DNA of 64,000 nt from Armatimonadia bacterium (GTDB taxonomy: Bacteria > Armatimonadota > Zipacnadia > Zipacnadales > UBA11051), in assembly GCA_039683575.1 (NCBI GenBank), contig JBDKRC010000235.1:4100-68099 (forward strand), given 5' to 3'. Of the stretch, positions 3,777 to 52,452 are shown piece after piece (within the stretch, counting starts at the first letter, position 1; every line of letters starts with the position of its first letter). The notes under the pieces were generated by a model that worked only from the letters and a program-made list of their open reading frames with translations, made no database searches and was not told where the DNA came from. The position numbers were made by a program, and so were the translations under genes.

Positions 3777-5458
3777 GCTTGCCTCTCAGCTTCCACAAAA
3801 GGGTTCTGGACCAAGGAGTCGGCGTCAGACAGCCGCACGAGGAAGCCTGCCGCCTCCAGCATGCTCATGAACCAGGCCTCGGCCTCCCCGCCGAGGGTCA
3901 GCAGACAGGTTCTGCCACACCAGGCACTGGACGCACCCAACCGCCGGTCATCGACCGCGAGACCGTAGTGAGCGAACATCAGGTCCTTGAAACCCTCGTA
4001 GGTCACGCGCTTCCCGGGTGGCAGCAGTGACAGGACTAGGTAGCGCAGCAGATGCTCGTTGAGAACGAACCGGGCGCCAGGGCCCTGGCGGGGCACGATC
4101 AGCCCCAATCGCTTGGCCACCGATAGGAAGAGCTTGTGCCCATAGCGCGTGTCTGCCTCCGGGTACAGATCGTTGGCCTGCTTACCGTTTGCTTCGACGG
4201 CATACTTCCGTCTGGCCACGGCCTCCTCGATCTCGGGATGGCGCAGCGCCTCCCGGATGAGGCGCTGTAGCCGGCTGACACAGCGCTGCGAGATGCGTTT
4301 GGCGGGCGTGGAGTCGCCGCTCGCGTCGGAGAGCGCCCACACGAACCCCAGTGGTCCAGCATACTCCCGCACCTCCGCGGCCCACTCGACATAGCGGGCG
4401 CTCTGAGCGCACAGGCTGCGCAGGAGTTGGAGGGCGCAGGCTGTCTGCATCAACTCGAGCCGCTCGATAGGGTCGACGGCCGCTGCGCAGACGTGCACCA
4501 GTTCCAGTGCAAACAGCCACCCCTCGGGCCAGCCCTCGCTCGGGCACCAGCCGCAGTCGCTGAAACGGGGCTGCCCCCCGTCGTCACAATCGGTCTGCTG
4601 CGATGTCTCCGGCTCAATAACCTGATCAATGAAGCGTGCCAGTGCTCCAACACCCTCCGGACACTGACCGGTCAGTACCCGCCGCAGGCCTACCTCCAGG
4701 GCATCGCGCACTCGCTCAGGCGAGCGTTCGTCTTCGCCGAACCCGATGTCCGCTTCTTCACACCAGCCGCGGATCTGTTCAGGGCTCTGGCGCAGCGCGT
4801 TGCAGAGCTGCAGGTACAGCACCTCGCCACCGCGCGCCACGAAGCGATGCCGTCCGACTGTGAAGAACTGGGGCATCTTCTCCGCCACTTCCGCCCACGT
4901 CGTCACCCCCCTGCGCCGAGCCTCTGTCTCGTTCCATATGGTGTCACCGGCAAGTACTTCGGGGCAGATCGGCGTGAACGCCTGAGCACACCACGTCCGC
5001 CGCCCTCCTATAGCCTGGAACCCAAGGAAGAGGTTCTCCAGCGTCTGGACTACCTCGCGCGGTGAAACGCCCTCGGGCGGCCTCAGTCTCTCTGGACTCT
5101 GTAGCTCAGCCAGCAAGCTGATGTAATGCTCTCTGTGGCTGCTGTGGCGGCTCGCAAGCTTCGATGCCCCCATAAACGCGAACAGCTTCAGGTTGAGACG
5201 CGCTCGCGGGCTGTATCGCAACGGCTGGCCCTCGGGCCAATCGCATAGACTGTCCAACCCCGGTATTGTCCTGTCGACTGGCAGAGAGGTGTTTCCGATC
5301 CGCTTTGGTGAGGCGGCAACCAGCAGCAGCTCGATCAGCAGCTCCGGAACCGTCTGGTCCGCGAAAAAGCGCCGCCCGAACAACTGAACGGCGGGGTTGG
5401 CGTCCTGGCCCTCAGCCGACAGTATGTCGAGTGGGATGCTCGGGAAGGGCGTAGGCAT
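3773..5458 (-). CDS. Uncharacterised protein (about 561 aa), translationally coupled to the upstream kinase gene.
   Basis: ATG at 5458-5456 shares one nucleotide with the TGA stop of the 1553-aa gene (TGATG). The protein reads MPTPFPSIPLDILSAEGQ... The track ORF 3773-5614 extends N-terminally into the upstream gene. No recognisable motif. Confidence 0.6.
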   Translation of the reverse strand: MPTPFPSIPLDILSAEGQDANPAVQLFGRRFFADQTVPELLIELLLVAASPKRIGNTSLPVDRTIPGLDSLCDWPEGQPLRYSPRARLNLKLFAFMGASKLASRHSSHREHYISLLAELQSPERLRPPEGVSPREVVQTLENLFLGFQAIGGRRTWCAQAFTPICPEVLAGDTIWNETEARRRGVTTWAEVAEKMPQFFTVGRHRFVARGGEVLYLQLCNALRQSPEQIRGWCEEADIGFGEDERSPERVRDALEVGLRRVLTGQCPEGVGALARFIDQVIEPETSQQTDCDDGGQPRFSDCGWCPSEGWPEGWLFALELVHVCAAAVDPIERLELMQTACALQLLRSLCAQSARYVEWAAEVREYAGPLGFVWALSDASGDSTPAKRISQRCVSRLQRLIREALRHPEIEEAVARRKYAVEANGKQANDLYPEADTRYGHKLFLSVAKRLGLIVPRQGPGARFVLNEHLLRYLVLSLLPPGKRVTYEGFKDLMFAHYGLAVDDRRLGASSAWCGRTCLLTLGGEAEAWFMSMLEAAGFLVRLSDADSLVQNPFVEAERQA

Positions 5459-8400
5459 CAGTCGACCTCCAGACGATGCTCGCTGACTGTGAACCGTTGC
5501 TGGTGGAACATACGGTTGGTCCGCAGCCGCACCAGGATCAGGTCTGGGCCGGTCTCGGGTGGGTAGGCATGCAAGAGCTGACCCTTGAAGCGCTCCAGAC
5601 GGTCGGCGTAGCACGCCTGTAGCTGCCGACTGATCTCACCTCGCTGGCGTGCCATAACGTAGTCGAGGAAAGACAGGTTCAACACCAAACACACCGGCTC
5701 AAGCCCGTGCTCACTAGTGAGTTCCAGCTCTCGCCTCTTGGCGCCACTCCCTCCGTCCACCGTCTGCAACGACAGGTCGAAGTCACTCGTGGGCACCGAG
5801 GTCAGGACAATCTGGGCGCTTTGGCGCACCTGAGACGAGCGACGGCTCAAGGTCATATGCAGTCTCTCATCAGGCAGAGGCCCCTCGGGCAGGCGTACAC
5901 CGGTAAGGTGCTCTTGCAGCACCTGGAATAGCCGTGTCTGCAGGAGCTTGCGCTCACGGTAGTCCAGTTGGGTCGCCTGCTGCCATGCGGCATGCCGGAT
6001 GATCATGGGCGAATCGAGGTATGCCGTGAGGTAGCGCTCGCTTTCATCTTCGTCAAAGGCGTAGAGGAAGAACAGGACCCGGCGAGCCTGCTCGCGAGCA
6101 ACCGCCTGCGCCTCCTCCTCCGTGATCCCCCTACCGGCGCCCGCGTCGCATAGCTGTTGGAAGACATCCTGCAGTCCCTCGATCACCAAGGGGGTATTGC
6201 GTGTCTCTATCGACTGCCACAGGCGGCGTTCCCACGCCGCACAGAGCCGACGGCCGAACCCTTGAGCCCGCGCCAGGCGCACGGCCTGCAGCTGCAGGGC
6301 CGGGAGATCGATGTTCCTTCCGTCGTCGCCGAAAAACCTGTTGAAGAACATATATTCCGGTCCCGGCGAGGAGGCCGATCTGGCGACCATCGAGGCCGCC
6401 TGCGCACAACTGAGCCCGGAGGTCAGCATATATGCCAGGTGAGCCGACGCCTGCCGGAGGGTGAGACGCGCGCCGTACTCATACATACGGCGGTATGCCA
6501 GCAGAAGACGCTGGGTTACGAGACCGGGATGCTGCTGCAACAGTGCGGCATTCTGACGGATGGGGCATCCGCTTCGGCATGCCTTCCCCTCGCAGTCATC
6601 CCAGTTCGCGGGCTCCAGGAGACGGCGGAACAGCCTCTCCACCAGCGGGAGGTTGTCCATCTTGGAAAGGTTGATGATCTGTAGCGGGACCCCGTGGAAG
6701 TGCAGTGGCCTTGGTCCCGCCTGCTCCAGCGCGGTCAGAAGTGCGCTCTCGGTCTCCCGCCAGTCCGCCTTCAGCGCCTGCTCGTGCTGCCGGAAGGTCT
6801 CCAGCAAGGTACCGCTGTTCGAGACCAGCAGGAAGCGAGGCCCCCCCGCGGCCAGCATCTCCGCCAGCAACTCCGCACGCTCTTCCCCGTCCCACTCGCT
6901 TAGGTCCTTTACGAGCGACGTGTCCAATGCTTCGACTTGGCTGTCTTCCCTGCGTTCTAGGGGCGCCTGCAGCGGGCGATGGAGGTGCTGGTTGCGGAAC
7001 CGCTTCAGGCATTGCAGCAGGATGATGGACTTGCCGTCTCCAGCGTGGCCCGTTAGGACCACATGTGTCCGTGTTTCTCCTAGCAGAAGCTCGTTGATGA
7101 CATCCGCCAGAGGGTGGGCAACCTGTACCGATCCGAACAACGGGTTGGTCGCCTGCGACTCGGCCAGAGAGTTCTTGCTGCCACCCCGGCGACAGTGCAG
7201 GCTGTTGAGGTAGGCAACGAAGGCGTTGCCCTCAGGCTGCTCCTGTTCGAGCTGCGGGCCGGAGAACGGTGCAATCTGCTCGGGTTGATCACCGCGGGCT
7301 ATTTCAGTCGGGGCTTCCCGGTCTGTGCGGGTTGGTTGCACGTCTCGTATGGGGGTGAGAGCCGCTTCCTCGCGTTCGGGCACTCCAAGGGGCGCCAGAT
7401 CGGCCGCGGGTGTCTCAGCGCTCGCTTCGACCTGCTCTGCTTCGACCTGCGGAAGCGCTCGTTGCAGCGCCCGCAGCATCTCGGCGGCAGTGCCGAAACG
7501 CTTGTTGGCTTCTGTGGCTACAGCCTGGGCGAACCATAGCTCAAGCTCCGGGCCGAGGGCGCGTCGCTCCGGCGGCAGCGGCGCCGGCTGCACGCCAACC
7601 TGCAGCTGCGTGTACGGCGTCCGCCCACAGTACCACTCGAAAAGGGTCACTCCGAGAGCAAACAGATCTCCCTGTTCGCAGTAGTCGCGATCTTGCCCCG
7701 ACCGCAAGTCCGGCGGCACGTAGCCCTCAGTGCCCTGGTATGGCGCAATCTTCGGGAAGCTGGCGCATCCAAAGTCCACGATGACTGGCAGCCGGCTGTC
7801 GGTAAGCAGGATGTTCTCAGGCTTGATGTCGTTGTGCAGGATGGGCTCAGCACCGTCGTCGCCCCGGTGGCCATGCAGGGCCGCCAGCGCTTCCAGGAGC
7901 TGTGTTGCCCAGGCTGCGAACTGATCAAGGTCAGGCAGTAACCCGGCGCTGATCTCGTTCCGCAGACTCCGCTCGGAAAGCCGCTGGAAGGCGATGTAGA
8001 AGCGTCCGTCCCCTTCCCAGGTGCTGTGATTCTCCACCCGGACGATCCCGGGGTGGTGCACGGCTCCGGCAAACTGCTGCTCCTCGAGCCCGTGCCACTG
8101 CGGCACATCTCGGCCAAACAGCTTCACGACCACCAGTCGGCCTCTTGGGCCGACAGCCCGGTACAGTTGCGCCTCTACCCCCTGCTTGATGAGACACTCG
8201 ATCTCGTAGAGGTCATTGCGGGTGCCTGGCTCCAGGACCGGGTTCAGCACGGGAAGCCGCGGTGGGGTATCGTCGCCAGCCAGGCGCGCAAGCACTGCCG
8301 CTGCCGTAGCAAGACGCTGGGAGGGTTCTTGACGGACCAAGTCCGAGACCAACGCGCGCGCCCGTGCGGACACTCCCACCAGGGCCTCCGCTTCAACCTC

Positions 8401-10119
8401 GGCCAAGCCCCCGCCGGTCTTCTCCAGGTCCGTCGAGCAGGCAAACGGCGGCCTGCCCGTAAGCAGCTCGAAGAGAACCACCCCGAGACTGAACAGGTCG
8501 GCCGCCTCAGTGAGGTCCCCTCCGTAGTAGACCTCGGGGGCGATGTAGGGTGATCTGGGCAGTCTCTCGGCGTCCAGAATCACCGTCTGATGCTCCTCCT
8601 CCAGACGATAGGAAAGGTCGAAGTTGGTCAGCTTCGGCACCCCGCCAGCCATCACGACGTTCTCGGGGGAGAGAGCACGATGGATCACGTCTCGCTCGTG
8701 ACTTGCCTGCAGACCCTGAAGCACTCCCTCTGCCACTGTGAGAGCGTCTTGTTCCTGCAGCGGTTCGCGATCCTGAAGCCGGTCTCTAAGCGTTCCACTC
8801 TCCGACCAGTCACTGCCCTCAACCAGGTAGCCCATCTCGCTGGGAATGCGCCAGACCTTGAGAATGTTCGGATGATCCCCGATGGCCAGCACAGATTCGA
8901 GCGCCCCTTGGGCTCGTCTCCAGAGCTCCTCTCTCTCCTCCCCCGAGCCGGGCGGAGGCGGGAAGAACACGCGAAGGCGGCTCAGTCTGCGGCGCCCAGC
9001 GCCGGTTGGCCGGGCAATCACCTCGGCGCGGTCCTCACTCTGGTACAGCCGCTCCACCACCTCATACCCGGGGAACGCGTAGTCGCGGGGCGGGTTGGGG
9101 GTGGTGAGTTCCTCCAGGTAGTCACAGAAGGCCTTGACCTGCGCTTCCTGCAGAATGGTTCCCTTGCGTTCGCGTTGCCGCTTGAGGTAGGCGATCAGTG
9201 ACTTAGTGCCATCGAAGGTAGGATTGCTGGTAGTCGTGTCCGGGTCTGCAGCCCCGTTCACGGTGGCTTCAGGGTTCGTCAGCACTACGACCGACTCCAC
9301 GAATACTTCGGGGAATATGGCGAAACCACGGTCGTACATCCCACGAAGCAGCTTGGCCTTGTGCGAGTTGCCAAGGTGCGGATCGGGACGACACGAGGAA
9401 CGGTTCAGCAGCCAGGAGTAGGGACGAATGTCGATCTGCCCGCTCCAATGCTTCAGTTCCACCACGTAGATACCGAACGGGCACACCAGGATCAGATCAG
9501 TCTCAAAATAGCGATTGGACTGGCGGTCGTGGATCTGACGGTTTGCCAGGGCATAGCCAAGTTCCTGGGTAGTCAGGCGCTTGCAGATGTCCTCGATCGC
9601 CGCGGCCTCGTGGGGGAATGCCCCGGGTGATGTCCCAGTCACTATGGTGCCCGCGGGGCCGCCAGCCGCATTGCTCCCCTCCCTGACAGTCGTCAGGCGG
9701 CTGATGATCTCATAATCGACCCGTTGGCGGGTTGCCTCCACTTGAAGAAAATCGAATACTTCGCCGTCCAGTTGAGCGTGGCTTACGAGCTCGCTGAGAG
9801 CTGCCGGCGAGCCAACGGAGGTGGTGCGAGCCAACTCAGCTTCCTTGCCATCACACGGCACAAGTTCCCAAAAGCTGGAGCTGCGGAGGTGGAAGAACGG
9901 TGCCAGCGGCCGGTCTCGATCATTGGGCCCGGCATACGTGGCGAATACCTCGGTGAAGCACTCCCGGAACTCTGCGTTGAAGAACACGCATCCGTCCCGG
10001 ACGCGCCCCCTCCGGATGAGCTCAATCACGGCCAGCATAGCTAAGTACTTGTGCGGCTTGAACATAGGGCCAGGCTGCCCCAGATCCCTGAGCTCGCTGA
10101 TGAAGTCGTCGATGGACAT
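5458..10119 (-). CDS. PglW-like multidomain protein: N-terminal uncharacterised domain, NERD nuclease-related domain, pseudokinase, Ser/Thr protein kinase, P-loop NTPase (1553 aa).
   Basis: NERD-like block LILVCPFGIYVVELKHWSGQIDIRPYSWLL. Kinase-like domain 1 lacks the catalytic Asp (VIHRALSPENVV, NFD instead of DFG, but APE present: SPYIAPEVYYG). Kinase domain 2 has VVVKLF (beta-3 Lys), HNDIKPENILL and DFGCA. Walker A is VVLTGHAGDGKSIILL. 14-bp gap to the upstream cysteine desulfurase. Confidence 0.8.
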   Translation of the reverse strand: MSIDDFISELRDLGQPGPMFKPHKYLAMLAVIELIRRGRVRDGCVFFNAEFRECFTEVFATYAGPNDRDRPLAPFFHLRSSSFWELVPCDGKEAELARTTSVGSPAALSELVSHAQLDGEVFDFLQVEATRQRVDYEIISRLTTVREGSNAAGGPAGTIVTGTSPGAFPHEAAAIEDICKRLTTQELGYALANRQIHDRQSNRYFETDLILVCPFGIYVVELKHWSGQIDIRPYSWLLNRSSCRPDPHLGNSHKAKLLRGMYDRGFAIFPEVFVESVVVLTNPEATVNGAADPDTTTSNPTFDGTKSLIAYLKRQRERKGTILQEAQVKAFCDYLEELTTPNPPRDYAFPGYEVVERLYQSEDRAEVIARPTGAGRRRLSRLRVFFPPPPGSGEEREELWRRAQGALESVLAIGDHPNILKVWRIPSEMGYLVEGSDWSESGTLRDRLQDREPLQEQDALTVAEGVLQGLQASHERDVIHRALSPENVVMAGGVPKLTNFDLSYRLEEEHQTVILDAERLPRSPYIAPEVYYGGDLTEAADLFSLGVVLFELLTGRPPFACSTDLEKTGGGLAEVEAEALVGVSARARALVSDLVRQEPSQRLATAAAVLARLAGDDTPPRLPVLNPVLEPGTRNDLYEIECLIKQGVEAQLYRAVGPRGRLVVVKLFGRDVPQWHGLEEQQFAGAVHHPGIVRVENHSTWEGDGRFYIAFQRLSERSLRNEISAGLLPDLDQFAAWATQLLEALAALHGHRGDDGAEPILHNDIKPENILLTDSRLPVIVDFGCASFPKIAPYQGTEGYVPPDLRSGQDRDYCEQGDLFALGVTLFEWYCGRTPYTQLQVGVQPAPLPPERRALGPELELWFAQAVATEANKRFGTAAEMLRALQRALPQVEAEQVEASAETPAADLAPLGVPEREEAALTPIRDVQPTRTDREAPTEIARGDQPEQIAPFSGPQLEQEQPEGNAFVAYLNSLHCRRGGSKNSLAESQATNPLFGSVQVAHPLADVINELLLGETRTHVVLTGHAGDGKSIILLQCLKRFRNQHLHRPLQAPLERREDSQVEALDTSLVKDLSEWDGEERAELLAEMLAAGGPRFLLVSNSGTLLETFRQHEQALKADWRETESALLTALEQAGPRPLHFHGVPLQIINLSKMDNLPLVERLFRRLLEPANWDDCEGKACRSGCPIRQNAALLQQHPGLVTQRLLLAYRRMYEYGARLTLRQASAHLAYMLTSGLSCAQAASMVARSASSPGPEYMFFNRFFGDDGRNIDLPALQLQAVRLARAQGFGRRLCAAWERRLWQSIETRNTPLVIEGLQDVFQQLCDAGAGRGITEEEAQAVAREQARRVLFFLYAFDEDESERYLTAYLDSPMIIRHAAWQQATQLDYRERKLLQTRLFQVLQEHLTGVRLPEGPLPDERLHMTLSRRSSQVRQSAQIVLTSVPTSDFDLSLQTVDGGSGAKRRELELTSEHGLEPVCLVLNLSFLDYVMARQRGEISRQLQACYADRLERFKGQLLHAYPPETGPDLILVRLRTNRMFHQQRFTVSEHRLEVD

Positions 10120-10132
10120 ACCGAATGGCTCC

Positions 10133-11287
10133 TCAAGGTCTGGTCGAGGTCAGCGCGACCGCCGTTGCCAATTCGCCTACCGCGACGGACACATCTTCCG
10201 CAGTGTTGTAGCGACCGAATGAGAGACGAATCGTCTGTTCCGCCTGGGCCCGCGGGAGCCCCATTGCCAGTAGCACGTGGGATGGCGCCAGAGTGCCTGT
10301 GCCGCAGGCCGAGCCCTGGCTGATGCAGATGCCGCTCGCTCGGGAGATGACCAAGTCTGAGGCGCTACCATGGATCGTGATGCTACTGGTCCCAGGCAAC
10401 CGCGGAGCACCTGTCCCGTTGACGGCCATACAGTCCAGACGCCCGGCCAATTCCGCCTCAAACCGGTCGCGCAACGCAGCCGTACGATTGGGCTCAGAGG
10501 CGAGGTCGGCGCTGCAAAGGCGGCAGGCTCTCCCGAAACCGACTATGCCTGGTACGTTCAGCGTGCCAGGGCGCAGACCGTCCTCTTGGCCTCCGCCGAA
10601 CTGCAGCGGCGTTAGCAGCGAGCGCATCTCGCCGTCACGGACGTAGAGAGCGCCGACCCCTTTGGGCCCATAGAGTTTGTGCGCGCTGAAGGAGGCCAGA
10701 TGCACTGGTAGCGCATGCAGGTCCAGCGGGACCTTGCCCAGCACCTGGGCGCCATCCGTGTGCATAAAGGCACCGCACCTCCTGGCCAGCTCGCCTATCT
10801 CCGCTACCGGCTGAACCGTCCCAACCTCGTTGTTACCACCCTGCACGGAAACCAAGAGGGTCTTCTCGTCGATCAGAGACGCCGCAGCCTCAAGATCCAC
10901 ACTGGCGTTTCGGTCCACGGGCAGCAGGACCACCTGAAAGCCCTGTTCGGCCAGATAGTCGCAAGGCCCAAGGATGGACTTGTGCTCCACCGCGGATACG
11001 ATGATCTTGCGCCGACCGGGGTTAGAGCGAGCCAAGCCCAGCAGGGCCAGGTTGTTGCTCTCTGTGGCCCCGGAGGTGAAGATGATCTGCCCCGGGCTAC
11101 AGCCGGCCAGCGCAGCAACTGCTTCGCGGGCGGCCGCCACGGCAGTAGCGGCAGCGCGCCCCATCACGTGCGGGCTGCCGGCATTGCCGAACTCAGTGGT
11201 CAGGAAAGGCAGCATCGCCTCCACGACCTGGGGGGCGCAGCGCGTAGTGGCGTTACAGTCGAGATAGACAGGCGCCTGTCGTTGCAT
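10133..11287 (-). CDS. Cysteine desulfurase (class V aminotransferase; IscS/NifS/DndA/SspA-like).
   Basis: PLP-lysine motif SAHKLYGPKGVGALYV, N-terminal VYLDCNATT, and GSACGTG near the C-terminal active-site Cys region. Likely start is the Met of MQRQAPVYLD. Confidence 0.85.
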   Translation of the reverse strand: MQRQAPVYLDCNATTRCAPQVVEAMLPFLTTEFGNAGSPHVMGRAAATAVAAAREAVAALAGCSPGQIIFTSGATESNNLALLGLARSNPGRRKIIVSAVEHKSILGPCDYLAEQGFQVVLLPVDRNASVDLEAAASLIDEKTLLVSVQGGNNEVGTVQPVAEIGELARRCGAFMHTDGAQVLGKVPLDLHALPVHLASFSAHKLYGPKGVGALYVRDGEMRSLLTPLQFGGGQEDGLRPGTLNVPGIVGFGRACRLCSADLASEPNRTAALRDRFEAELAGRLDCMAVNGTGAPRLPGTSSITIHGSASDLVISRASGICISQGSACGTGTLAPSHVLLAMGLPRAQAEQTIRLSFGRYNTAEDVSVAVGELATAVALTSTRP

Positions 11288-11358
11288 ACAGCAAGTCCTC
11301 AAGGAGATCTCCGCCAGCCTGGCGGGTGCCCACCACGGTTAGCTCCCGATGGGTTCCT

Positions 11359-12189
11359 TCAGAGAGCGCAGATCAGGCAGCCCCGATCTGCGCTGTCGTC
11401 CGCATCGTCGAGTACCTCGCCAAGCGAGACACCGGCGCGGAAGCCGCCTGCACGTTCGCGACGCTGCTCGAACTCAGCCTCGATCTGTGCTACGCGTTCC
11501 GGTCGCGAGAGCTCCTCCAGGCTTTCACCCTGCACCCAGGTGTAGCGCTGTCCTGTGTCAGTGTCGGCCTTCTCATACTCCATCGCCTGCTTGAAGAGAC
11601 CCGGGTGTTCTCTCATCAGCCCAACCCACTCGCGGCGTTGCTGGAAGAAGCAGAAGTAGCACCCCGAACGCGAGCGCCAGCGGTAGTAGTCTGGGAGGCC
11701 CAGGCCGCTCTCCTCCAGTATCCGCAGCACACCGGCTCTGTTAATGCCCTCCTCGATGAACGGGAAGCACGCGACTATGTTGGGCTTCGTTGACAGATAG
11801 CCCTTCCTGTGCCGCTCGTCTGCACGAATGCCCACGTAGGTGACGGCGGGGGTCTCACCGATGAACTTCTCAAATGGCTTCAGTTTGAGATACTCCGTGC
11901 ACCACCGGATCTGCGGTGATGGCAGATAGCCACGACGTATGCTGAGGAGGTCATCGAAGCCCATCCCGTCGTGCTTCAGGCGGATGATCGGTCTGCCGAG
12001 ATAGACTTCCAACCGGTCGAGGTAGTCGTACGTCTCGTCAAGCTCCTTGTCCGTATCACAGAACACGTACTCCATATCCGGCATGCGGTCACGCAGGTGG
12101 ATGGCCAGCGCTGTGCTGTCCTTGCCGCCTGAGAGCGAGAGGATATGCCGGGTGTTTCCGGCTTGCTGAGGCGTGCCGCTGTCACTCAT
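11359..12189 (-). CDS. PAPS-reductase-family ATP pyrophosphatase (DndC/SspD/BrxP-like, short form about 276 aa).
   Basis: PP-loop motif ILSLSGGKDSTALAIHL, with C-terminal Cys pairs (CYFCF, CLIC). Start taken at MSDSGTPQQ, overlapping the ATPase stop by a few nt. Confidence 0.75.
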   Translation of the reverse strand: MSDSGTPQQAGNTRHILSLSGGKDSTALAIHLRDRMPDMEYVFCDTDKELDETYDYLDRLEVYLGRPIIRLKHDGMGFDDLLSIRRGYLPSPQIRWCTEYLKLKPFEKFIGETPAVTYVGIRADERHRKGYLSTKPNIVACFPFIEEGINRAGVLRILEESGLGLPDYYRWRSRSGCYFCFFQQRREWVGLMREHPGLFKQAMEYEKADTDTGQRYTWVQGESLEELSRPERVAQIEAEFEQRRERAGGFRAGVSLGEVLDDADDSADRGCLICAL

Positions 12190-15100
12190 CTTCTGTGGTG
12201 TCTCCGATCTTGCCCGCGGCAAGCTTGAGGGCCGCCTTCACGACATGTGCAGGCAGCTTCGCTATCGCGGGATTGAGCGCTTTCATGATCTTGTCCGACA
12301 GAGCCTGCGCGCGCTGCATCTCGGCGGGCAGGAGTTCCGGCAGGTCCAACGTGGTAACCGAGGCGCTCCGCATCGTAGCGGCTGCGCTTCTCAGCAGAGC
12401 CCCCACCATCTCCGCTGCTTCCGGGAAACGCTTGCGGTCGAGGTCGCTCCAGTTGCGTGGGGGGCGTTGAGCGACAAGCGCAAGCACCGTCTCGACCCCC
12501 TCAGCTGTGTCGTCGACCTCCTGCATACGCGCCAGCAGAGCCGCTAACCGAGGTTCTCTCACCCACGGCCGTAGGCGGTCGCCGAGGCCTCGCAGCTCAT
12601 CCCAGCCCGCCTCCCCTGCTGGTAAGTTGCAGGCGCGTAGTAGAGTGTCACGGGCCGAGGCGATGGCTGTAGGCGCGACTGCCCCCCATTCCCGAAGGCA
12701 CCCGTTAAGGCGCTCAAAGAACTTCTGCACCTGGCCGGTTTCCGTCTCGTCAGCCCCGAACGCAGGGAAGCCCAGCGCGCCAGGGAGATCCGCGAAAAGC
12801 AGTTGCTCCGGGGATCGTGCCGCGGCAAAGGCCTCGCGCAGAGCAACTACCGGCGCGCTCAGTTCCTGAGTGTGCCAGGCCAGTTCCGGGAGGCTGCGCA
12901 CCATCCGGAACAAGGCCCGCACCACCGGCAGAGTCGCTGAGTTCACCTGCAGACTGCGAGCCAGTCGCCCTACCACCTCCGCGCGGGCGCCTGTAACCTG
13001 CCCACCCGCTATGGCGTACAGCTCCGGCCTGCGCATAAGCACTTCGAAGTCCGCGATGCCGACCTCCGGAAGGAATGTGCCTTCGCGGTACAGTGTCGTC
13101 TCATCTGGGTAAGCCAGCATAAAGGCACACAGCAGCACCGGGTGCAGGCCCTCTGGTACGCCAATGGGCGGGGCGGCCAAGCCGGCGAAGAGTCCATCGA
13201 GTTGGACCGGCTCCAGCCCATCGGCCAGAATCTGCCGGTCTAGGAACTCCCAGACCGAAGCGAGAGCAGCATCGCTCGTACGGTCGGGAGGGTGGAAGCC
13301 CCAGCGGCACGAGTCGTCCTCTCGGTGCAAGCCGGTGACCAGAAGGACGGACTCGTACATGCTGCGCTCAGGAGGGTAGCCTTCAAGCCCCAACAGGGGC
13401 TCCCCCGCTCGCGTCAGCATCCTCTCGATCAGGTTGCGGCGGGCAGCGGTTGCGGCCGCGGACAGAGTCCTCCTTGCGATGAGCTCGTTGCGGATGCGTG
13501 GTGACTTGGGGAAGAGGCTGTCACAGACGTCTGAGACCAGCTTGGACACGTCAGTGGGTGTGCGGACGGCCTTCTGCTGTCCGCCCCAGAACCAGAGACA
13601 CTGGCTGCCACGCGGCGCCGGCCGTGGATCCAGGAGGCCATCGAGGTCCCGCAGCAATACCTGCTCCGCCTCGCTGATGCGGATTGAGATCTCTCGACGG
13701 GCCACTCGGTCGTCGCGAAGCTCTGGGGTGTTGTCCCAGACCCAACGCAGCGCAGCTAGCTCCTGAACAGCCGCTCGCAGCTCACCTATCTCTTGCGGCA
13801 CCGCCACCAACAGGTCGTGCCGCGCCCCGGCACCGGCCGTGGCGACGGCGACGAACTCATCAGACCGCTTGAGCGAATAGGCCAGGCACACTGCGACGTG
13901 GGCGGGGGCCGTCTCGGAGGCTTTCCAGTCCAGAGACAGTTCAGATGGGTCGTCGAGGTAAGCCACGGCCAAGTGCCGCAAGGCGCCAGTCTCGAAGCTG
14001 TGCCGGCGTGCGACCAAAGGACGCGGGGGCAGGTAGTGCCTGATGTTCTCCGCCAGGCTGAGCCTGTCCCGCGTGTGGGTAGCGCCCTGCTCAAGACGCT
14101 CATCGATGTCGACGTCACTGCCTTCCCAGATCTGAAAGGCGTCTGTGAATGTGCGGAACGTCAGGACAGACTTCTCACGCAACTGAGCGAGGCTGTCTTC
14201 TAGTTTTGCCGGCGGCTTGGTCTGGTCTGAGAGAACGAGTGAAAGTACCTGCTGATGGGCCTGTAGGTGGCTGAACTCGCCCAGAGCATTGAGGATCCCC
14301 GTTGACTTCACGAGCGCCTTGTGGAGATCGGTCAGGTCGCTTCTGCGGTCAAGCACGTCCACAGCCTCAAGCCAACGCTTCGCCTGCGGGTGCCGGTACA
14401 GGCCGGTCCCGAAGTTCGCGACGAAGTAGTCGAAAAGGTCAGGTAGCCGGACGAAGGCAGGCGTCCCCCCCTCCGCTGTGTGAGCCCGGAGAAAGTCCTG
14501 CAAGGCATACGGTTCCTGGCTGCTCAGATAGGCGAAGAGAGAGCGTTCGTTCTGCGCAAAGCGCCGGAACAGGTAGGGCAAGGCCACTAACGTAACGGGA
14601 TGGAGTGGATAGGCTCTGACGGCCAGGCGCTCGAAGTCGCGGGGGGGCATCCCCGGAGGAGCGACGACTGGTGCGGCGGCGCGCGCCACCGCCTGCACTC
14701 GCTTCGCCAGTGACGCCGGCAGTTCCCGCCCGGTCGGCCGGAGAGCGCTCGCGATCATCCGCACAACCTGATCAACCGGCTCGAGGAACGGAACGTCGTG
14801 GAAGCGCCCGCCTATCTTCTCCCATTCGCGACGGGTTACCGCATCCAGGTGCTGGCCGTATTCCTCGAACGCCTGATGCAGGAAGCCGAGGAAGAGAACT
14901 GGCTCGACGCCGCTGCGGCTGGCGTATTCGGCGAGTTCCTGCAGCACGAACACATCACCGCGCCGAGGGTCTCGGGCTGCGTACTCGAAGAGCTTGCCCA
15001 GCTCGTCAACAATGACTAGGAGGCCTGTGTAACCTTGTGCTCGGGCAACAGCGGCCAGCTCCTGCAGGGCACCGACGACGTCCCGGCTGTCGGCAAAGGC

Positions 15101-15610
15101 CCCCGCTTGCAGGGCCTTCAGCAGCGCGGCCAAACGCTTCCTTAGTCGCGCGGTAGCGGCGCCCTCCAGCCCTGCGATAGCAGCCAACATGCCCTGTAGC
15201 AGGCAGGCCGCAGCCGGAGCCCGCCGGGCCGTCACCAGCACTGGCAGCATAGTGCCGTTGCCATTGGCGCGAAGGCATCCTTGAGCAAGAGTCTCGGCGA
15301 GGTCGGGGGCAGCCAGCAAAAGCTTCTGCCTCGCCTGGTCCCCTGCGGCGTCTTTGAGGCAGAGCAGGCGCGTCAGGAACACGGCGAAGGCTGATTTGCC
15401 GACGCCATAGGGGCCGGTAATCGTCCAGGCTCGCGCTACGGAGCCCTCACTTAGCCCCTCTGCGAGACGGTGCAAGGCCTGCCGTGCATTGGCCGTCAGG
15501 ACATAGTCGCCGTTAGTACCGTTGCCGCGCGCATCCTGCTCGAGGCTAACCGACCGCAGGAACCTACGCCCGACCTCCACGTACTGATCCAGCGACTTCT
15601 GCATCTCCAT
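12182..15610 (-). CDS. Large P-loop ATPase, SspC/BrxC (PglY)-like (1142 aa).
   Basis: Walker A WTITGPYGVGKSAFAVFL (about aa 68) and Walker B GLLVIVDELGKLF (about aa 200), then a roughly 900-aa helical body. Its start shares one nt with the stop of the upstream gene. Family assignment is by architecture and context, not by alignment. Confidence 0.6.
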   Translation of the reverse strand: MEMQKSLDQYVEVGRRFLRSVSLEQDARGNGTNGDYVLTANARQALHRLAEGLSEGSVARAWTITGPYGVGKSAFAVFLTRLLCLKDAAGDQARQKLLLAAPDLAETLAQGCLRANGNGTMLPVLVTARRAPAAACLLQGMLAAIAGLEGAATARLRKRLAALLKALQAGAFADSRDVVGALQELAAVARAQGYTGLLVIVDELGKLFEYAARDPRRGDVFVLQELAEYASRSGVEPVLFLGFLHQAFEEYGQHLDAVTRREWEKIGGRFHDVPFLEPVDQVVRMIASALRPTGRELPASLAKRVQAVARAAAPVVAPPGMPPRDFERLAVRAYPLHPVTLVALPYLFRRFAQNERSLFAYLSSQEPYALQDFLRAHTAEGGTPAFVRLPDLFDYFVANFGTGLYRHPQAKRWLEAVDVLDRRSDLTDLHKALVKSTGILNALGEFSHLQAHQQVLSLVLSDQTKPPAKLEDSLAQLREKSVLTFRTFTDAFQIWEGSDVDIDERLEQGATHTRDRLSLAENIRHYLPPRPLVARRHSFETGALRHLAVAYLDDPSELSLDWKASETAPAHVAVCLAYSLKRSDEFVAVATAGAGARHDLLVAVPQEIGELRAAVQELAALRWVWDNTPELRDDRVARREISIRISEAEQVLLRDLDGLLDPRPAPRGSQCLWFWGGQQKAVRTPTDVSKLVSDVCDSLFPKSPRIRNELIARRTLSAAATAARRNLIERMLTRAGEPLLGLEGYPPERSMYESVLLVTGLHREDDSCRWGFHPPDRTSDAALASVWEFLDRQILADGLEPVQLDGLFAGLAAPPIGVPEGLHPVLLCAFMLAYPDETTLYREGTFLPEVGIADFEVLMRRPELYAIAGGQVTGARAEVVGRLARSLQVNSATLPVVRALFRMVRSLPELAWHTQELSAPVVALREAFAAARSPEQLLFADLPGALGFPAFGADETETGQVQKFFERLNGCLREWGAVAPTAIASARDTLLRACNLPAGEAGWDELRGLGDRLRPWVREPRLAALLARMQEVDDTAEGVETVLALVAQRPPRNWSDLDRKRFPEAAEMVGALLRSAAATMRSASVTTLDLPELLPAEMQRAQALSDKIMKALNPAIAKLPAHVVKAALKLAAGKIGDTTEDE

Positions 15611-16562
15611 TATGAGCCATTTCCTGCGCCGAAGTAGCGATCAAGCAACGCCAAGGCGTCGAATTCGCGACGGCGGTAGATCTGCTTCAGGCCTGCCGTC
15701 TCATCAACAGAGACTGCGCCGTCGGTCAGTTCCTCGAGCTCCTCTACGTACTCGATGAGGCTGTTCTCATCCAGCTTGAAGGCCTGACCGGGACTTCCTT
15801 TTCCGTACAGGCACTGCTGGATGCCCAGTGTGCTCTGGGTCTCGCGAGTACGACTGAAGTGCTGGTCAAGGGCAAACGCAAACACGGGCGCCGGCAGCGA
15901 CGGCTTCGGGCCGATGCCAAAGGCGTACAGGTCTCCGTCAGCAGATGGCTGGATCAGCCGGAGGGATAGCAGGGGACAGTCGAAGCTCTCCTCGGGCAGC
16001 GCTTCTCCGATCTCGGCGCGCGGGGCCGCATAGGTGCGAAGAAAGCAGTCGAAGTCGCGGGACAAGGACGAGCGCGCAACCTTCAGCGCCCCCTTCTCTG
16101 CAACAGAGGCCAGATGGTCTACAGCTTCACGCCGGGTGAAATCGGGACGATGGTAGTGACAGAAGAGCAGCTGCCACGTGGTGCAGACACTTGGGTTTGA
16201 GACCAGCATCCAGTGGATGAGCCAGAGGGAGGCGTCGTCCTCAAGGAATGGGTCCCAGCCTTCTGGCAACAGCAGAAGGCGCGCCATAGGTGTGGGCTGC
16301 AGTGGCTGCGCTTTGCCTCGCGGCGCACCCGGCACCGGTTCTATGAGCTGCGTCACTGTGCACCAATGTCTTATGCTCTGCACCATATTCTTGCCCACCC
16401 CCAGGTGAACGAGCGCATCCTCATCGGAGAAGATGGTTGCCCGCTGCTCGACGCCCCTTACCCCCTTCTCAAGCCAACCATAGCGGAAAGCAAAGGTCTG
16501 GTGGCCGGAGAAACGATAGGACACCTTGCCCTGCGTGGTCTCATTACTATCGGCAATGATCA
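15610..16562 (-). CDS. SspB-like DUF4007-type protein (first gene of the operon).
   Basis: The conserved block SYRFSGHQTFAFRYGWLEKG resembles the GHETF..RYGWL signature I associate with DUF4007/SspB. A GGAG RBS sits 9 nt before the ATG at 16562 (MIIADSNE). The track ORF extends to 16734 with a less likely upstream start. Confidence 0.5.
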
Positions 16563-17641
16563 TCTCGTCAGCTCCGGGACGGGGCTTGCCTGCCGCAGCA
16601 GCTAGGGGGAGGTAGACGGTCGTGCAGAGACCGACGGGGAAGAACGGTGTATCCCCCTCGTAGACCGCAACCTCGGCTGAAGAAGGCGCAATGGCTGTTT
16701 CGACGGCTGTCGAGCCCGGACCTTCCTCTCCCATGCACTCCAGGTAGCGTCACGCGCCACATACTCGCTCAGCAATCTGGGACAGCTTCCTCCGTCCGCG
16801 TCAGAGCTCGGGAACGCGCGAACTCAGCAGAGTCACAATGGATGGTGTCCGGCTCCTCATACAACTCACGCGCTACGCGTAAGCAGTGAGGCTCACAAGC
16901 CCACGCCGCCGCCGAGCCGGAACACCTCATCGTCCACCGTGGCGGTCTCACGGCACTCGCCAGATCGTGCTATCGGTGTCTCGCCCTCGGCTTGGGTGAC
17001 TGGGCCGGCGGGCAGCGCAGGGCCGACCGAGCCGCAAGAGCCCAAGATGGGCACTACCGCCCCGTGACGAGGAATTCTGGCCTGTCTGGGGTCGAGGCCA
17101 TCCCGAGGATCCACGGCCACCCTCGGCTTCCCAAGTTACCCAACCCGAGGATTCTCGGCTTCCCTCGGCTTGGCCCGCACTCCCCCAGGCGCCCCACTAG
17201 AACGCCTGGCCCAGGCCGCACACATGGGCGGAACGGGGGCCCCGGACCGGCGGCCCAGGGAGCCCGATCCCCGAGAAATCCAAGGTCAACCGATGCTCCT
17301 CCTGGGCCAGCCCGAACACACCCTCCATCAGAATCACCACTCAACGTCCCTACCGGCGTCCGGAACGGGGCCCCAAGGCCTGGTCCCCCGGGGGCCTGAT
17401 CCTGCAGGGCATGCCACACACAGCAGCGGCCGGATTCCGTCAAGACATACTTCCGCCGGCCACGCAAGCGGTTGCGTCGGGTCCTCTTTGGCCTCCTATC
17501 CCCCCGGGGGTCTCGGCGGCGGGGGGAGGTGGAGTCCCGATGGGACCCACACCGTCAGAACCTCGAGACGAAGGGGTGAGCCAGCCCCATTCGTCGCAGT
17601 GTGACGACGGCGGAGAGGCCCCGAAGTGCCATCCGACCGAT

Positions 17642-23854: not shown

Positions 23855-24337
23855 ATGATGCGGACAGCGTCACACCGGCTGGCCCTCGCCATCGGGTTCG
23901 ACCGCCCATTGAGCATCGAGGACGTGGAGGAGATCTGCGACCAGGGCATCGCCGATAGCGGAGACTTTCTCCCCGACCCCGAGGACCCGACGGCACATAC
24001 CTACTGCGGCGACCGCTGGGCGGTCGAGTACAGCACCGGGCGGCCACGGCTGGTGGAGGCCATCGAGGTCGGCCCCCACCCCATCGGGCCTGCCACTGCG
24101 AGGGCCGAGCGGGCGTTCGCCCTGATCATCGACATGGTCGATTGCGTCGGCCCGCCGATGACCCAGGACTGCGTAGACCGGATCCGCAGGGAGAGCTGGG
24201 GGGATAGGTTCGGAAGGGCCGCCCAGAGCGATGCCACGGACCAGTTGTTGGACCTGATCTATCGTGACGGGGATGCCCCCGATTCCGAGCGGACCGTTCC
24301 CACCGAGGAGGTGGATCAGAATGAGGAAGAGCGATGA
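23855..24337 (+). CDS. Hypothetical protein (160 aa).
   Basis: AGGAGGAA lies directly before ATGATG (MMRTASHRLALAIGFDRPLSIEDVEEICDQGIADSGDF...). Confidence 0.4.
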   Translation: MMRTASHRLALAIGFDRPLSIEDVEEICDQGIADSGDFLPDPEDPTAHTYCGDRWAVEYSTGRPRLVEAIEVGPHPIGPATARAERAFALIIDMVDCVGPPMTQDCVDRIRRESWGDRFGRAAQSDATDQLLDLIYRDGDAPDSERTVPTEEVDQNEEER

Positions 24338-25568: not shown

Positions 25569-25823
25569 TCCGTCCCGTCCGCGTTGGGACGTGGTCGGGT
25601 GTCGCTGATTCGGAGCTGGCCAGCAGGGCATCGCAGGTCCCGCTGAGGTAGCGTTACAGAGATGATCCGGGCACCCCGCGCCGACGTGGGTACGGACTGG
25701 GGAGGCCGTTGCATACGACGTCCAATCCCACATGAGACTTTCGCCTTGGGCCCGGGCATCGTATGATAGACCGCGGCAATGGACCCAAAGCCGATTGCCA
25801 GCAACTGGAGGAGGTACCCGCAG

Positions 25824-30677: not shown

Positions 30678-30747
30678 CCGCTCAGCCTCCTTCGCCGCCC
30701 ACCCGTGCGGCACGCCGCCGCACCTCGTATTGCCCCCACACCGAGTC

Positions 30748-37633: not shown

Positions 37634-37703
37634 GGTCCGATTCGCCTCCTCAAAGCCGCTGAAGATTGGGGGCTGAGAATGGTGATTCTCGACCCCAATG
37701 ACT

Positions 37704-37737
37704 GGGTGGGTTCGCAGACCCTGCGGGCAAGGGGGGT
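37704..37737 (-). promoter_or_regulatory. Conserved promoter/operator motif, copy 8 (minus strand), upstream of int.
   Basis: The reverse complement reads CCCCCCTTGCCCGCAGGGTCTGCGAACCCACCC. Confidence 0.55.
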
Positions 37738-37848
37738 CGGTGGATACGCATAGCCATGACCGCCAGTATTGCCGCGTCTTACAAGCTGACTGCTCACGTC
37801 TCCCGTCTCATGTCATGTCGCCGGGCGTCCAGGCCAAACCCATATAAG

Positions 37849-52433: not shown

Positions 52434-52452
52434 CTGTGGGGAGAAGCCTGAG

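What the first reader, a model, noticed from the sequence alone, without database searches (positions are those of the whole stretch)
10133..16562. sspB-C-D-A-like gene order with an unusually small PAPS-reductase and a BrxC-sized ATPase
The PP-loop enzyme is only about 276 aa, whereas DndC is about 500 aa and BrxP much larger. Its C-terminal Cys pairs may coordinate an Fe-S cluster.

The ATPase has Walker A at about aa 68 and Walker B (VIVDELG) at about aa 200, then about 900 aa of helical sequence, like BrxC/PglY.

The short overlaps between successive genes indicate obligate co-expression.
Basis: inference. Interest (0 to 1): 0.55.

Follow-up and report, generated by a model that had tools for sequence, protein, structure and literature searches.

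The report
Ordinary SspBCDA DNA-sulfur modification operon
This is a standard four-gene SspB-C-D-A system that puts sulfur into the DNA backbone; its "small" enzyme is the normal size for its family. The only unusual part lies just downstream, where a sulfur-sensing nuclease/kinase is fused to the partner restriction module.

Summary
The four minus-strand genes at 10133-16734 are real and are a canonical sspB-sspC-sspD-sspA phosphorothioate (PT) modification module. Profile matches cover the full length of each protein: SspB 1.5e-88, SspC 1057 bits, SspD 3.1e-109, SspA 2e-135.

The title claim fails. A length of 276 aa is the normal SspD size: the PADLOC SspD model has 277 positions, and the 120 best database relatives are 264-296 aa. 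The 1142-aa ATPase is simply SspC, a BrxC-family protein.

The source is an Armatimonadia metagenome-assembled genome (MAG).

The operon continues beyond the finding into an SspFGH/DndFGH-like restriction module:
- A 1553-aa protein combines a sulfur-binding domain (SBD; PDB 8h0l, E=1.9e-17, sulfur cavity conserved), a NERD nuclease, a pseudokinase, an active kinase and an SspF-like P-loop core.
- It is followed by an SspG-like gene and a truncated SspH-like gene.

In 28 of 31 related loci from about 12 phyla, sspBCD sits directly upstream of this block. The block always continues with a second, divergent SspB-like/SspC-like pair.

The fused F architecture was already catalogued computationally (Rakesh et al. 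2024). No experiment on it was found.

Verdict: a new member of a known kind, of low-to-moderate interest. The interest lies downstream, not in the finding itself.

The parts
15610..16563 (-). sspB (DUF4007, SspB). The ORF is open up to 16734 (374 aa); the probable start is Met58 at 16563 (317 aa).
   Evidence: Pfam DUF4007 9.7e-84. PADLOC SspB 1.5e-88, aligned from residue 74. PDB 6juf SspB 7.7e-36. Orthologues are 312 aa.
12182..15610 (-). sspC, a 1142-aa P-loop ATPase of the SspC/BrxC family. Walker A is at aa 66-73 and Walker B at aa 199-205.
   Evidence: PADLOC SspC 1057 bits over model positions 3-1051 of 1054; BrxC-PglY model 955 bits. Pfam BrxC_BrxD 25 bits, with no DUF499 hit. Motif positions.
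11359..12189 (-). sspD, a 276-aa PP-loop ATP pyrophosphatase of the PAPS-reductase fold. SGGKDS is at 20-25; C97, C177 and C180 are invariant; C271/C274 are variable.
   Evidence: PADLOC SspD 3.1e-109 over 1-276 of 277. Pfam PAPS_reduct 36 bits. Relatives are 264-296 aa. Cys conservation. AF2 model pLDDT 77.7, with best Foldseek hits to CysH, TtuA, NcsA and LarE.
10133..11302 (-). sspA, a class-V PLP cysteine desulfurase (DndA/IscS/NifS-like). The His-Lys PLP motif is at 208-209 and GSAC at 330-333 (numbering of the 389-aa ORF). An ATG alternative start lies at 11287.
   Evidence: Aminotran_5 4.4e-78. PADLOC SspA 2e-135 and DndA 6.5e-135. Motifs.
5458..10119 (-). 1553-aa fusion protein ('KinF'), lying outside the finding but in the same operon. 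Domains in order: SBD, NERD nuclease, pseudokinase, active kinase, SspF/DndF-like P-loop core.
   Evidence: Pfam NERD, 2x Pkinase and weak AAA_16. PADLOC PglW 1.8e-52, mad6 4.5e-60 and SspF 5.3e-26. SspF 7.9e-27 on the C-terminal 564 aa alone. 13-nt gap with GGAG after sspA.
9721..10062 (-). Sulfur-binding domain (SBD, a winged helix) of KinF, aa 20-133.
   Evidence: phmmer against PDB 8h0l SBDHga, E=1.9e-17. The SBDHga cavity residues H25/K26/L75/P76/H79 (PMC10602919) correspond here to H23/K24/A73/P74/H77. An orthologue carries Pfam DNA-SBD_ScoMcrA.
9277..9585 (-). NERD (PD-(D/E)XK) nuclease domain of KinF, aa 179-281. D208, E221 and K223 are invariant.
   Evidence: Pfam NERD 1.3e-12. Invariant columns in the 18-sequence alignment A1.
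7420..8982 (-). Tandem kinase domains of KinF. The first is a pseudokinase (HRALSPEN at 480-487, NFD at 499-501). The second is active (K666, E680, HNDIKPEN at 762-769, DFG at 782-784).
   Evidence: Pfam Pkinase 1.4e-51, two stretches. Motifs and invariant residues.
5461..7227 (-). SspF/DndF-like P-loop core of KinF, aa ~965-1553. Walker A GHAGDGKS is at 1024-1031.
   Evidence: PADLOC SspF 7.9e-27 and DndF 0.0066. Walker A invariant. No solved relative.
3773..5458 (-). SspG-like gene (561 aa from Met53 of the ORF). Its start overlaps the KinF stop (TGATG).
   Evidence: PADLOC SspG 4.5e-14, C-terminal ~150 aa only. No Pfam hit. Conserved directly after KinF in all related loci.
1..3776 (-). SspH/DndH-like gene. 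Its first 1258 codons are visible and it runs off the left end of the window. Its start overlaps the G stop (ATGA).
   Evidence: Open frame 3776..3. PADLOC SspH 1.3e-17. Full-length orthologues are 1757-1765 aa, with a DndH C-terminal match of 7.4e-59, HerA/FtsK-type Pfam hits and PDB 7es4 DptH.

Best explanation
The finding is a canonical SspABCD module for phosphorothioate (PT) modification of DNA. It is the front half of a longer PT-based restriction-modification operon.

Modification module (mechanism carried over by homology from the Vibrio and E. coli Ssp systems):
- SspA, a PLP-dependent cysteine desulfurase, takes sulfur from L-cysteine as a persulfide.
- SspD, a 276-aa PP-loop ATP pyrophosphatase, uses ATP and its invariant Cys97/Cys177/Cys180 triad to deliver that sulfur to a backbone phosphate. 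The triad most likely acts as a 3-Cys [4Fe-4S] site, as in TtuA/NcsA, or as a persulfide relay.
- SspB (DUF4007, a triple winged-helix nickase) and SspC (a BrxC-family P-loop ATPase) select and prepare the target motif.
- The expected result is sparse, single-strand PT marks on host DNA.

Restriction module (inferred from domain content and from published SspFGH/DndFGH behaviour):
- The genes immediately downstream encode it: KinF (SBD, NERD, pseudokinase, kinase, SspF-like core), an SspG-like protein and an SspH/DndH-like protein.
- On the rest of the source contig there is a divergent SspC paralogue, C2. A divergent SspB-like gene, B2, is expected before it, as in every orthologous locus.
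- The built-in SBD reads PT as 'self' and holds the F-G-H motor/nuclease complex in check.
- DNA lacking PT is attacked. The NERD nuclease and the kinase act as extra or back-up effectors.

What is shown: gene identities, motifs, operon structure and conserved linkage. What is inferred: PT chemistry, target motif, Fe-S content, and the direction of SBD control (inhibiting versus activating).
For: - Full-length, very strong family matches for all four proteins, plus a solved SspB relative.
- Catalytic motifs are intact.
- SspD size, fold and cysteine conservation are typical.
- Genes are translationally coupled or closely spaced from sspB through the H gene.
- KinF carries an SBD with a conserved sulfur cavity. 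It also has NERD D..ExK, one degenerate and one intact kinase site, and an invariant Walker A.
- SspF, SspG and SspH profile hits.
- Conserved linkage: sspB-C-D lies directly upstream of KinF in 28 of 31 related loci with at least 6.5 kb of upstream sequence. KinF-G-H-B2-C2 is present in all 33 loci long enough to show it.
- A partial C2 homologue (P0265) is annotated on the same 68,981-bp Armatimonadia contig as the window.
- Published biology: SspABCD-SspFGH damages non-PT DNA (PMC8092258).
- Published comparative genomics: wHTH+NERD+inactive/active kinase fusions to the DndF core have been described (PMC10853773).
Against: - No experiment exists for this locus or its close relatives. The PT motif and even PT production are untested.
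- Matches to SspF, SspG and SspH are partial and only moderate (89, 50 and 61 bits). The F/G/H assignment is therefore at superfamily level.
- SspC has no Pfam DUF499 hit.
- In type IV enzymes such as Hga and ScoMcrA, an SBD directs cleavage of PT-DNA. An SBD in a PT-making host therefore fits an activating (SspE-like) role as well as an inhibitory one.
- Three of six SBD-less KinF loci lack sspBCD, so the restriction block can exist without the modification block.
- The H gene is cut by the window edge. B2 and C2 are not visible in the window.
Confidence: 0.85

Rival explanations
1. The cluster is a type 4 BREX system: a BrxP PAPS-reductase, a BrxC ATPase and DUF4007, working with PglZ and BrxL.
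For: SspC scores 955 bits on a PADLOC BrxC-PglY model, and SspD gives a weak BrxP hit (30 bits). Type 4 BREX shares BrxC/SspC, the PAPS reductase and DUF4007 with Ssp systems (PMC12839542).
Against: None of the seven operon genes is PglZ or BrxL. The reductase is a stand-alone 276-aa SspD that matches the SspD model end to end. It is not a ~780-aa BrxP and is not fused to DUF4007. The downstream partners are F/G/H-like.
Confidence: 0.03
2. The cluster is an orphan, epigenetic-only PT module. Its adjacency to the kinase/F-G-H genes is coincidental clustering within a defence island.
For: About 84% of sspBCD modules in one survey had no recognised sspE or sspFGH partner (PMC8092258). The KinF block occurs without sspBCD in two Latescibacterota genomes.
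Against: There is only a 13-nt gap with an RBS between sspA and KinF, and no opposing genes. The same order is kept in 28 of 31 loci across many phyla, even though SspC identity falls to 27-30%. KinF carries a PT-reading SBD.
Confidence: 0.07
3. The SBD-bearing module is PT-activated, like SspE, rather than PT-inhibited. The SBD would anchor the complex on host PT sites, and infection signals sensed by the F core or kinase would then trigger NERD and kinase activity as abortive infection.
For: Known SBD enzymes act on PT-DNA (PMC10602919). SspE is PT-stimulated (PMC8092258). Rakesh et al. propose that NERD and the kinase are suicide back-up effectors (PMC10853773).
Against: SspFGH and DndFGH are toxic when PT is absent, which indicates that PT protects. 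SBD-less KinF variants also pair with sspBCD, so the SBD is not essential to the coupling.
Confidence: 0.25
4. The PP-loop enzyme and the desulfurase thiolate RNA or a cofactor (as TtuA, MnmA or LarE do) rather than DNA.
For: Foldseek places the SspD model among CysH, TtuA, NcsA, MnmA and LarE. A cysteine desulfurase plus a PP-loop enzyme is the standard tRNA-thiolation pair.
Against: Sequence profiles are specific for SspD (363 bits, against 36 bits or less for generic families). The enzyme is embedded between SspC and SspA together with the DNA-binding SspB. An adjacent protein carries a DNA-PT reader domain.
Confidence: 0.02

Closest known systems
SspABCD-SspFGH of Vibrio anguillarum FF-93 (Wang et al., mBio 2021, PMC8092258)
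   Same: It has the same sspB-C-D modification genes with a cysteine desulfurase. These are followed by a three-gene F (Walker A), G, H (FtsK-like C-terminus) restriction module. PADLOC SspB/C/D/A/F/G/H models all hit.
   Different: Here F carries about 960 extra N-terminal residues: SBD, NERD, pseudokinase and kinase. The G and H matches are partial. The H C-terminus of orthologues matches DndH better than SspH (197 against 79 bits). A further divergent SspB-like/SspC-like pair follows H in relatives. The desulfurase is encoded within the operon.
SspABCD-SspE of Vibrio cyclitrophicus FF75 / E. coli 3234/A (Xiong et al. 2020; SspB structure 6juf/6lb9)
   Same: The modification genes have the same families, order and sizes. 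SspB matches the solved SspB at 7.7e-36.
   Different: No SspE hit was found among the operon genes. The restriction partner is F/G/H-type.
DndF variants with wHTH + NERD + inactive/active S/T/Y kinase fused to the P-loop kinase core (Rakesh, Aravind, Krishnan, NAR 2024, PMC10853773)
   Same: The domain succession is exactly that seen in the 1553-aa protein. The wHTH equals the SBD.
   Different: That description is computational only. Here, and in 28 of 31 relatives, the protein is tied to sspBCD rather than dndABCDE, and to a B2/C2 pair. No mention of that pair was found in the passages searched.
PglW of type 2 BREX / MAD6 of MADS
   Same: NERD plus tandem pseudokinase/kinase N-terminal half. 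PADLOC PglW 1.8e-52; NCBIfam MAD6 349 bits.
   Different: Both scores are below the NCBIfam cut-offs (460 for MAD6, 990 for PglW). The C-terminal half is SspF-like. There is an N-terminal SBD, and no PglX/PglZ neighbours.
Hga and ScoMcrA/SprMcrA PT-dependent type IV restriction enzymes
   Same: Homologous SBD with the sulfur cavity kept, linked to a PD-(D/E)XK-class nuclease as in Hga.
   Different: Those are stand-alone enzymes that attack foreign PT-DNA. This SBD sits in a host that makes PT itself. Hu et al. noted an 'SBD + unknown + kinase' clade (3% of SBDs) without characterising it.

Membership tests
SspABCD PT-modification module | SspB: DUF4007 protein | tested here: met
   Pfam DUF4007 9.7e-84 over 1-288 of 288. 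PADLOC SspB 1.5e-88. PDB SspB 6juf 7.7e-36.
SspABCD PT-modification module | SspC: P-loop ATPase of ~1050-1150 aa with Walker A/B, matching SspC profiles along its length | tested here: met
   PADLOC SspC 1057 bits over model positions 3-1051 of 1054. Walker A at 66-73 and Walker B at 199-205.
   No DUF499 hit at E<=1; only BrxC_BrxD PF10923, 25.3 bits. This is a weakness of the label, not of family membership, given the full-length SspC match.
SspABCD PT-modification module | SspD: PP-loop (SGGKDS) PAPS-reductase-fold enzyme of ~270-280 aa | tested here: met
   PADLOC SspD 3.1e-109 over 1-276 of 277. SGGKDS at 20-25. Homologue lengths 264-296 aa. Fold confirmed.
SspABCD PT-modification module | SspA: PLP cysteine desulfurase with active-site Lys and Cys | tested here: met
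   Aminotran_5 4.4e-78; SspA 2e-135. HK at 208-209 and GSAC at 330-333.
SspABCD PT-modification module | Produces single-strand PT at a short motif (e.g. 5'-CpsCA-3') | not testable with these tools
   Needs LC-MS/MS or PT-sequencing of DNA from an expressing host.
SspFGH restriction module | F with a Walker A P-loop, matching SspF profiles | tested here: met
   SspF 7.9e-27 on aa 990-1553. GHAGDGKS is invariant. The match covers only model positions ~33-290 of 560-600.
SspFGH restriction module | G matching SspG | tested here: inconclusive
   SspG 4.5e-14, but only over the C-terminal ~150 residues. An orthologue gives 1.5e-21. No Pfam family.
SspFGH restriction module | H: large protein with an FtsK/HerA-like C-terminal ATPase | tested here: inconclusive
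   The window shows only the first 1258 aa (SspH 1.3e-17). The ATPase region lies beyond the window edge. It is present in orthologues (DndH 7.4e-59, TrwB/DUF87, PDB 7es4).
SspFGH restriction module | Toxic to PT-free DNA and relieved by SspBCD | not testable with these tools
   Requires expression experiments.
Type 4 BREX | PglZ and BrxL present; BrxP-type (~780 aa, often DUF4007-fused) reductase | tested here: not met
   No PglZ or BrxL hit among the operon genes. BrxP scores only 30 bits over part of the model.
DndABCDE | DndC (~450-500 aa) with a DndD ABC-ATPase and DndE | tested here: not met
   DndC models hit only a 30-residue motif (22-25 bits; NCBIfam 18.5 against a cut-off of 290). 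No DndD or DndE neighbour.
Sulfur-binding domain (SBD) of PT-dependent nucleases | Homology to a solved SBD, with the sulfur-cavity residues conserved | tested here: met
   8h0l E=1.9e-17 over aa 20-133. H23/K24/P74/H77 are identical to SBDHga H25/K26/P76/H79, with L75 replaced by A73.
PglW (type 2 BREX) / MAD6 (MADS) | Score above the curated equivalog cut-off, and cognate partners present (PglX/Y/Z or other MAD genes) | tested here: not met
   MAD6 349 bits against a cut-off of 460; PglW 178 bits against 990. No methyltransferase or PglZ in the operon.

The most novel reading that the evidence does not exclude
The locus is part of a conserved, experimentally untouched eight- or nine-gene PT defence supersystem: sspB-C-D(-A), then SBD-NERD-pseudokinase-kinase-SspF, G, H, then a second divergent SspB-like/SspC-like pair. 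It is spread over about a dozen mostly uncultured or anaerobic phyla.

In this reading, the PT mark is read by a sulfur-binding domain built into the restriction complex. The duplicated B'/C' scanner pair guides restriction rather than modification. A protein kinase and a NERD nuclease add an abortive layer.

This would be a distinct subtype of Ssp defence with a defined self-recognition module.
Probability: 0.45. Interest if true: 0.55.

Novelty: new member of a known kind. Interest (0 to 1): 0.3.

Why it matters
The flagged cluster itself adds only another SspABCD example, this time from an Armatimonadia MAG. It also corrects a false impression: SspD is normally about 276 aa.

The neighbourhood is more useful. 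How SspFGH and DndFGH complexes recognise PT as 'self' is still unclear. Here a bona fide sulfur-binding domain with an intact sulfur cavity is fused directly to the F subunit, and this fusion is conserved next to sspBCD across many phyla. That gives a concrete, mutable candidate for the PT reader. It also provides a natural comparison set of SBD-containing and SBD-less variants, and of loci with and without sspBCD.

The second SspB/SspC-like pair suggests that the scanner module has been duplicated for restriction.

Tried and rejected
Searches that led nowhere:
- Looking up the window's own KinF protein in the contig index: not on record.
- Scanning genome contigs with the G protein alone: no relatives. 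Repeating with the KinF alignment succeeded.
- Sigma-70 promoter scan upstream of sspB: none found; one terminator-like site inside sspB is at chance level.
- tRNA scan of the whole window: none.
- PDB sequence searches for SspC and for the F core: no hits.
- Literature searches for MADS/kinase, SspBCD+kinase and PptA: nothing relevant.

Ideas considered and rejected:
- Pfam DUF499 on SspC: absent even at E<=1.
- Type 4 BREX, Dnd and tRNA-thiolation readings: rejected on profile scores and gene content.
- P0088, an apparent 'SspA-kinase fusion': its Aminotran_5 piece is only an internal fragment and the NERD domain is missing. It is most likely a deletion or a gene-calling artefact, so it was not used as evidence.
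- A strict SBD-to-sspBCD correlation: rejected, because three SBD-less KinF loci still have sspBCD.

Limitation:
- The structure tool returns no coordinates, so Cys-Cys distances in the SspD model could not be measured.

Full report
**1. Observation**

- 16734..15610 (374 aa)
- 15610..12182 (1142 aa)
- 12222/12189..11359 (287 aa from TTG, 276 aa from ATG)
- 11302..10133 (389 aa)

- SspC: Walker A GPYGVGKS at 66-73 and Walker B VIVDELG at 199-205.
- SspD: PP-loop SGGKDS at 20-25, CYFC at 177-180 and CLIC at 271-274.

The junctions read as follows:
- B/C: TAATG, a 1-nt overlap.
- C/D: ATGAGTGA, an 8-nt overlap.
- D/A: a gap of about 57-72 nt, not an overlap.

The 374-aa ORF is probably over-extended. 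All SspB profiles align from residue 73-75, orthologues are 312 aa, and Met58 at 16563 has a GGAG 10 nt upstream.

**2. Identity of the four genes**

| Gene | Evidence |
|---|---|
| sspB | Pfam DUF4007 9.7e-84 over the whole model; PADLOC SspB 1.5e-88; solved SspB 6juf/6lb9 7.7e-36 |
| sspC | PADLOC SspC 1057 bits over model positions 3-1051 of 1054; a BrxC-PglY model 955 bits |
| sspD | PADLOC SspD 3.1e-109 over positions 1-276 of a 277-position model; Pfam PAPS_reduct 36 bits |
| sspA | Aminotran_5 4.4e-78; SspA 2e-135 and DndA 6.5e-135; the His-Lys PLP motif and GSAC active-site loop are present |

For SspC, Pfam gives only BrxC_BrxD at 25 bits, and no DUF499 hit even at E<=1. For SspD, DndC and BrxP models touch only a short motif (22-30 bits). 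The cluster is therefore sspB-sspC-sspD-sspA.

**3. The 'unusually small' claim**

This claim does not hold.
- The query fills the SspD profile end to end.
- In a search of 5.8 billion proteins, all 8000 scored candidates were significant, and the best 120 are 264-296 aa.
- Orthologues in 33 related loci are 243-306 aa after trimming to the nearest start.
- An AlphaFold model (pLDDT 77.7) has the PAPS-reductase/PP-loop fold. Its best PDB neighbours are CysH, then the Fe-S-dependent thiolases TtuA and NcsA, then LarE and MnmA.

- Across 34 orthologues, the invariant cysteines are C97 (RWC motif), C177 and C180.
- The terminal C271/C274 pair is kept in only about 55% of them. It is invariant within the close clade.
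- A 3-Cys cluster site of the TtuA/NcsA type is therefore the more likely Fe-S ligand set. This is an inference.

**4. What lies around the finding**

The operon does not stop at 10133.

A 1553-aa gene (10119..5458) starts 13 nt after sspA, behind a GGAG. I call it KinF. Its parts are:
- aa 20-133: a sulfur-binding domain. It matches PDB 8h0l SBDHga at E=1.9e-17. The published sulfur-cavity residues H25/K26/L75/P76/H79 (PMC10602919) appear here as H23/K24/A73/P74/H77.
- aa 179-281: a NERD nuclease (1.3e-12) with invariant D208/E221/K223.
- A pseudokinase (HRALSPEN, NFD) followed by an intact kinase (K666, E680, HNDIKPEN, DFG).
- From about aa 965: an SspF-like P-loop core (PADLOC SspF 7.9e-27; Walker A GHAGDGKS).

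The N-terminal half resembles PglW and MAD6 but scores below their curated cut-offs.

Two more genes follow:
- An SspG-like gene (5458..3773; SspG 4.5e-14 over the C-terminal part only) overlaps the KinF stop (TGATG).
- An SspH-like gene starts at 3776 (ATGA overlap) and runs off the window after 1258 codons.

**5. Relatives**

The fusion protein has at least 296 homologues of about 1350-1550 aa. The identical sequence is annotated as 'MAG: protein kinase [Armatimonadia bacterium]' on a 68,981-bp contig.

I fetched 3 + 55 loci. Forty-three of them carry KinF relatives, drawn from Planctomycetota, Verrucomicrobiota, Acidobacteriota, Gemmatimonadota, Latescibacterota, Hydrogenedentes, Desulfobacterota, Bacillota, Chloroflexota, Atribacterota and Armatimonadota. 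The remaining actinobacterial loci match only the NERD/kinase part.

tblastn mapping gave the following:
- G follows KinF in every locus that has downstream sequence.
- H, a 283-aa gene (B2) and a ~1429-aa gene (C2) follow in all 33 loci long enough to show them.
- sspB-C-D sits directly upstream in 28 of 31 loci with at least 6.5 kb of upstream sequence. sspA is present in 10 of those.
- The three exceptions are SBD-less KinF genes in Latescibacterota. Two of these loci are the same chromosome fetched twice.
- Three other SBD-less loci do have sspBCD.

The two extra genes have these affinities:
- B2 gives weak DUF4007/SspB hits (2.2e-5 and 7e-5).
- C2 gives weak SspC hits (2.8e-9). A profile-profile comparison with SspC gives 94.3% probability and E=9.8e-8 over 581 columns, including the Walker B region.
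- A partial C2 homologue (P0265, 576 aa, 'partial') is annotated on the same 68,981-bp contig as the window. The source contig therefore carries C2, and presumably the whole block, to the left of the window.

Full-length H orthologues (1757-1765 aa) have a DndH-like HerA/FtsK C-terminus (DndH 7.4e-59; PDB 7es4 DptH 5.9e-7).

**6. Mechanism**

By homology with the characterised systems, the proposed steps are:
- SspA supplies persulfide sulfur.
- SspD activates with ATP and transfers the sulfur.
- SspB and SspC select the DNA target.
- Host DNA acquires sparse single-strand PT.

Published work shows that SspFGH damages non-PT DNA and is detoxified by SspBCD (PMC8092258).

I infer that the SBD in KinF is the PT reader that tells the F-G-H complex it is on self DNA. 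NERD and the kinase would then act as additional or back-up effectors, as proposed on comparative grounds by Rakesh et al. (PMC10853773). The opposite polarity, a PT-activated SspE-like mode, cannot be excluded.

**7. Comparison with what is known, and novelty**

- SspABCD is well known, and SspABCD-SspFGH is published.
- The domain string wHTH(=SBD)-NERD-inactive kinase-active kinase-DndF core is explicitly described in PMC10853773 and recalled in PMC12839542.
- An 'SBD + unknown + kinase' clade is mentioned in PMC10602919.
- In the passages I searched, I found no description of the consistent coupling of this F variant to sspBCD plus a second SspB/SspC-like pair, and no experimental work on it.

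The flagged feature is therefore a new member of a known kind. The extended locus may count as a variant subtype.

**8. Context**

- The ssp operon has 63-65% GC.
- From about 17 to 38 kb the GC rises to 66-68%. That stretch holds mobile-element-type genes: an IstB-like ATPase, a C-5 cytosine methylase, a tyrosine integrase, an AAA ATPase and an M41-like peptidase.
- A serine recombinase lies at 43.6 kb.
- No tRNA gene is present in the window.

Noticed in passing
window 5458-10119 (-): A 1553-aa protein fuses a phosphorothioate-reading sulfur-binding domain, a NERD nuclease, a pseudokinase, an active kinase and an SspF/DndF-like P-loop core. It lies directly after sspA. It is the most interesting object in the neighbourhood and lies outside the finding's coordinates.
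   Followed up: yes
L001 21546-24599; likewise L003, L005-L010 and others (33 loci); source contig left of window position 1: A second, highly divergent SspB-like (283 aa) and SspC-like (~1429 aa) gene pair always follows the H gene. hhalign of C2 against SspC gives 94% probability. A partial copy (P0265) is annotated on the window's own contig. Its function is unknown.
   Followed up: partly
window ~17000-38000: A block with higher GC (66-68% against 63%) carries mobile-element-type genes: an IstB-like ATPase (30748-32025), a C-5 cytosine methylase (34658-35764), a tyrosine integrase (36664-37797), an AAA ATPase (24264-25568) and an M41-like peptidase (25779-26618). It is probably an integrated element abutting the ssp operon. 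No att repeats were identified.
   Followed up: partly
window 32741-32883: Five to seven tandem 21-nt iteron-like repeats (core CCCCGTTTTGGGAATC) lie inside the putative mobile element. They may be a replication origin or a partition site.
   Followed up: no
window 17637, 18497, 19856, 21308, 22400: A ~53-nt dispersed repeat (CCGAnCCCCCTTGCCCACG...GTGA(A/G)CCCACCCGTG) recurs five times at intervals of ~0.9-1.5 kb. It may be a shared promoter or operator of the element's genes.
   Followed up: no
window 28131-30908 (-): A 925-aa protein is built from a ~23-residue (69-nt) repeat of the form 'HRDDGPAVE..DG...W', with only weak DUF6745 matches. A 903-aa antisense shadow ORF lies opposite it.
   Followed up: no
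window 43654-45117 and 47940-55850: A large serine recombinase (Resolvase + Recombinase domains) is followed by an FGE-sulfatase-domain protein and two leucine-rich-repeat proteins.
   Followed up: no
PDB 21fy chain C ('PptA', 270 aa): This is the only solved structure with sequence similarity to SspD (profile E=2.3e-10). The match includes the SPQxxCT and CxxC motifs. No paper describing PptA was found, so its biology is unknown to me.
   Followed up: partly
P0088 (1345 aa, homologue of KinF): The annotated protein joins an internal fragment of a cysteine desulfurase to the kinase-F part and lacks NERD. It is probably a deletion or a gene-calling artefact at the sspA/KinF junction in another genome.
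   Followed up: partly
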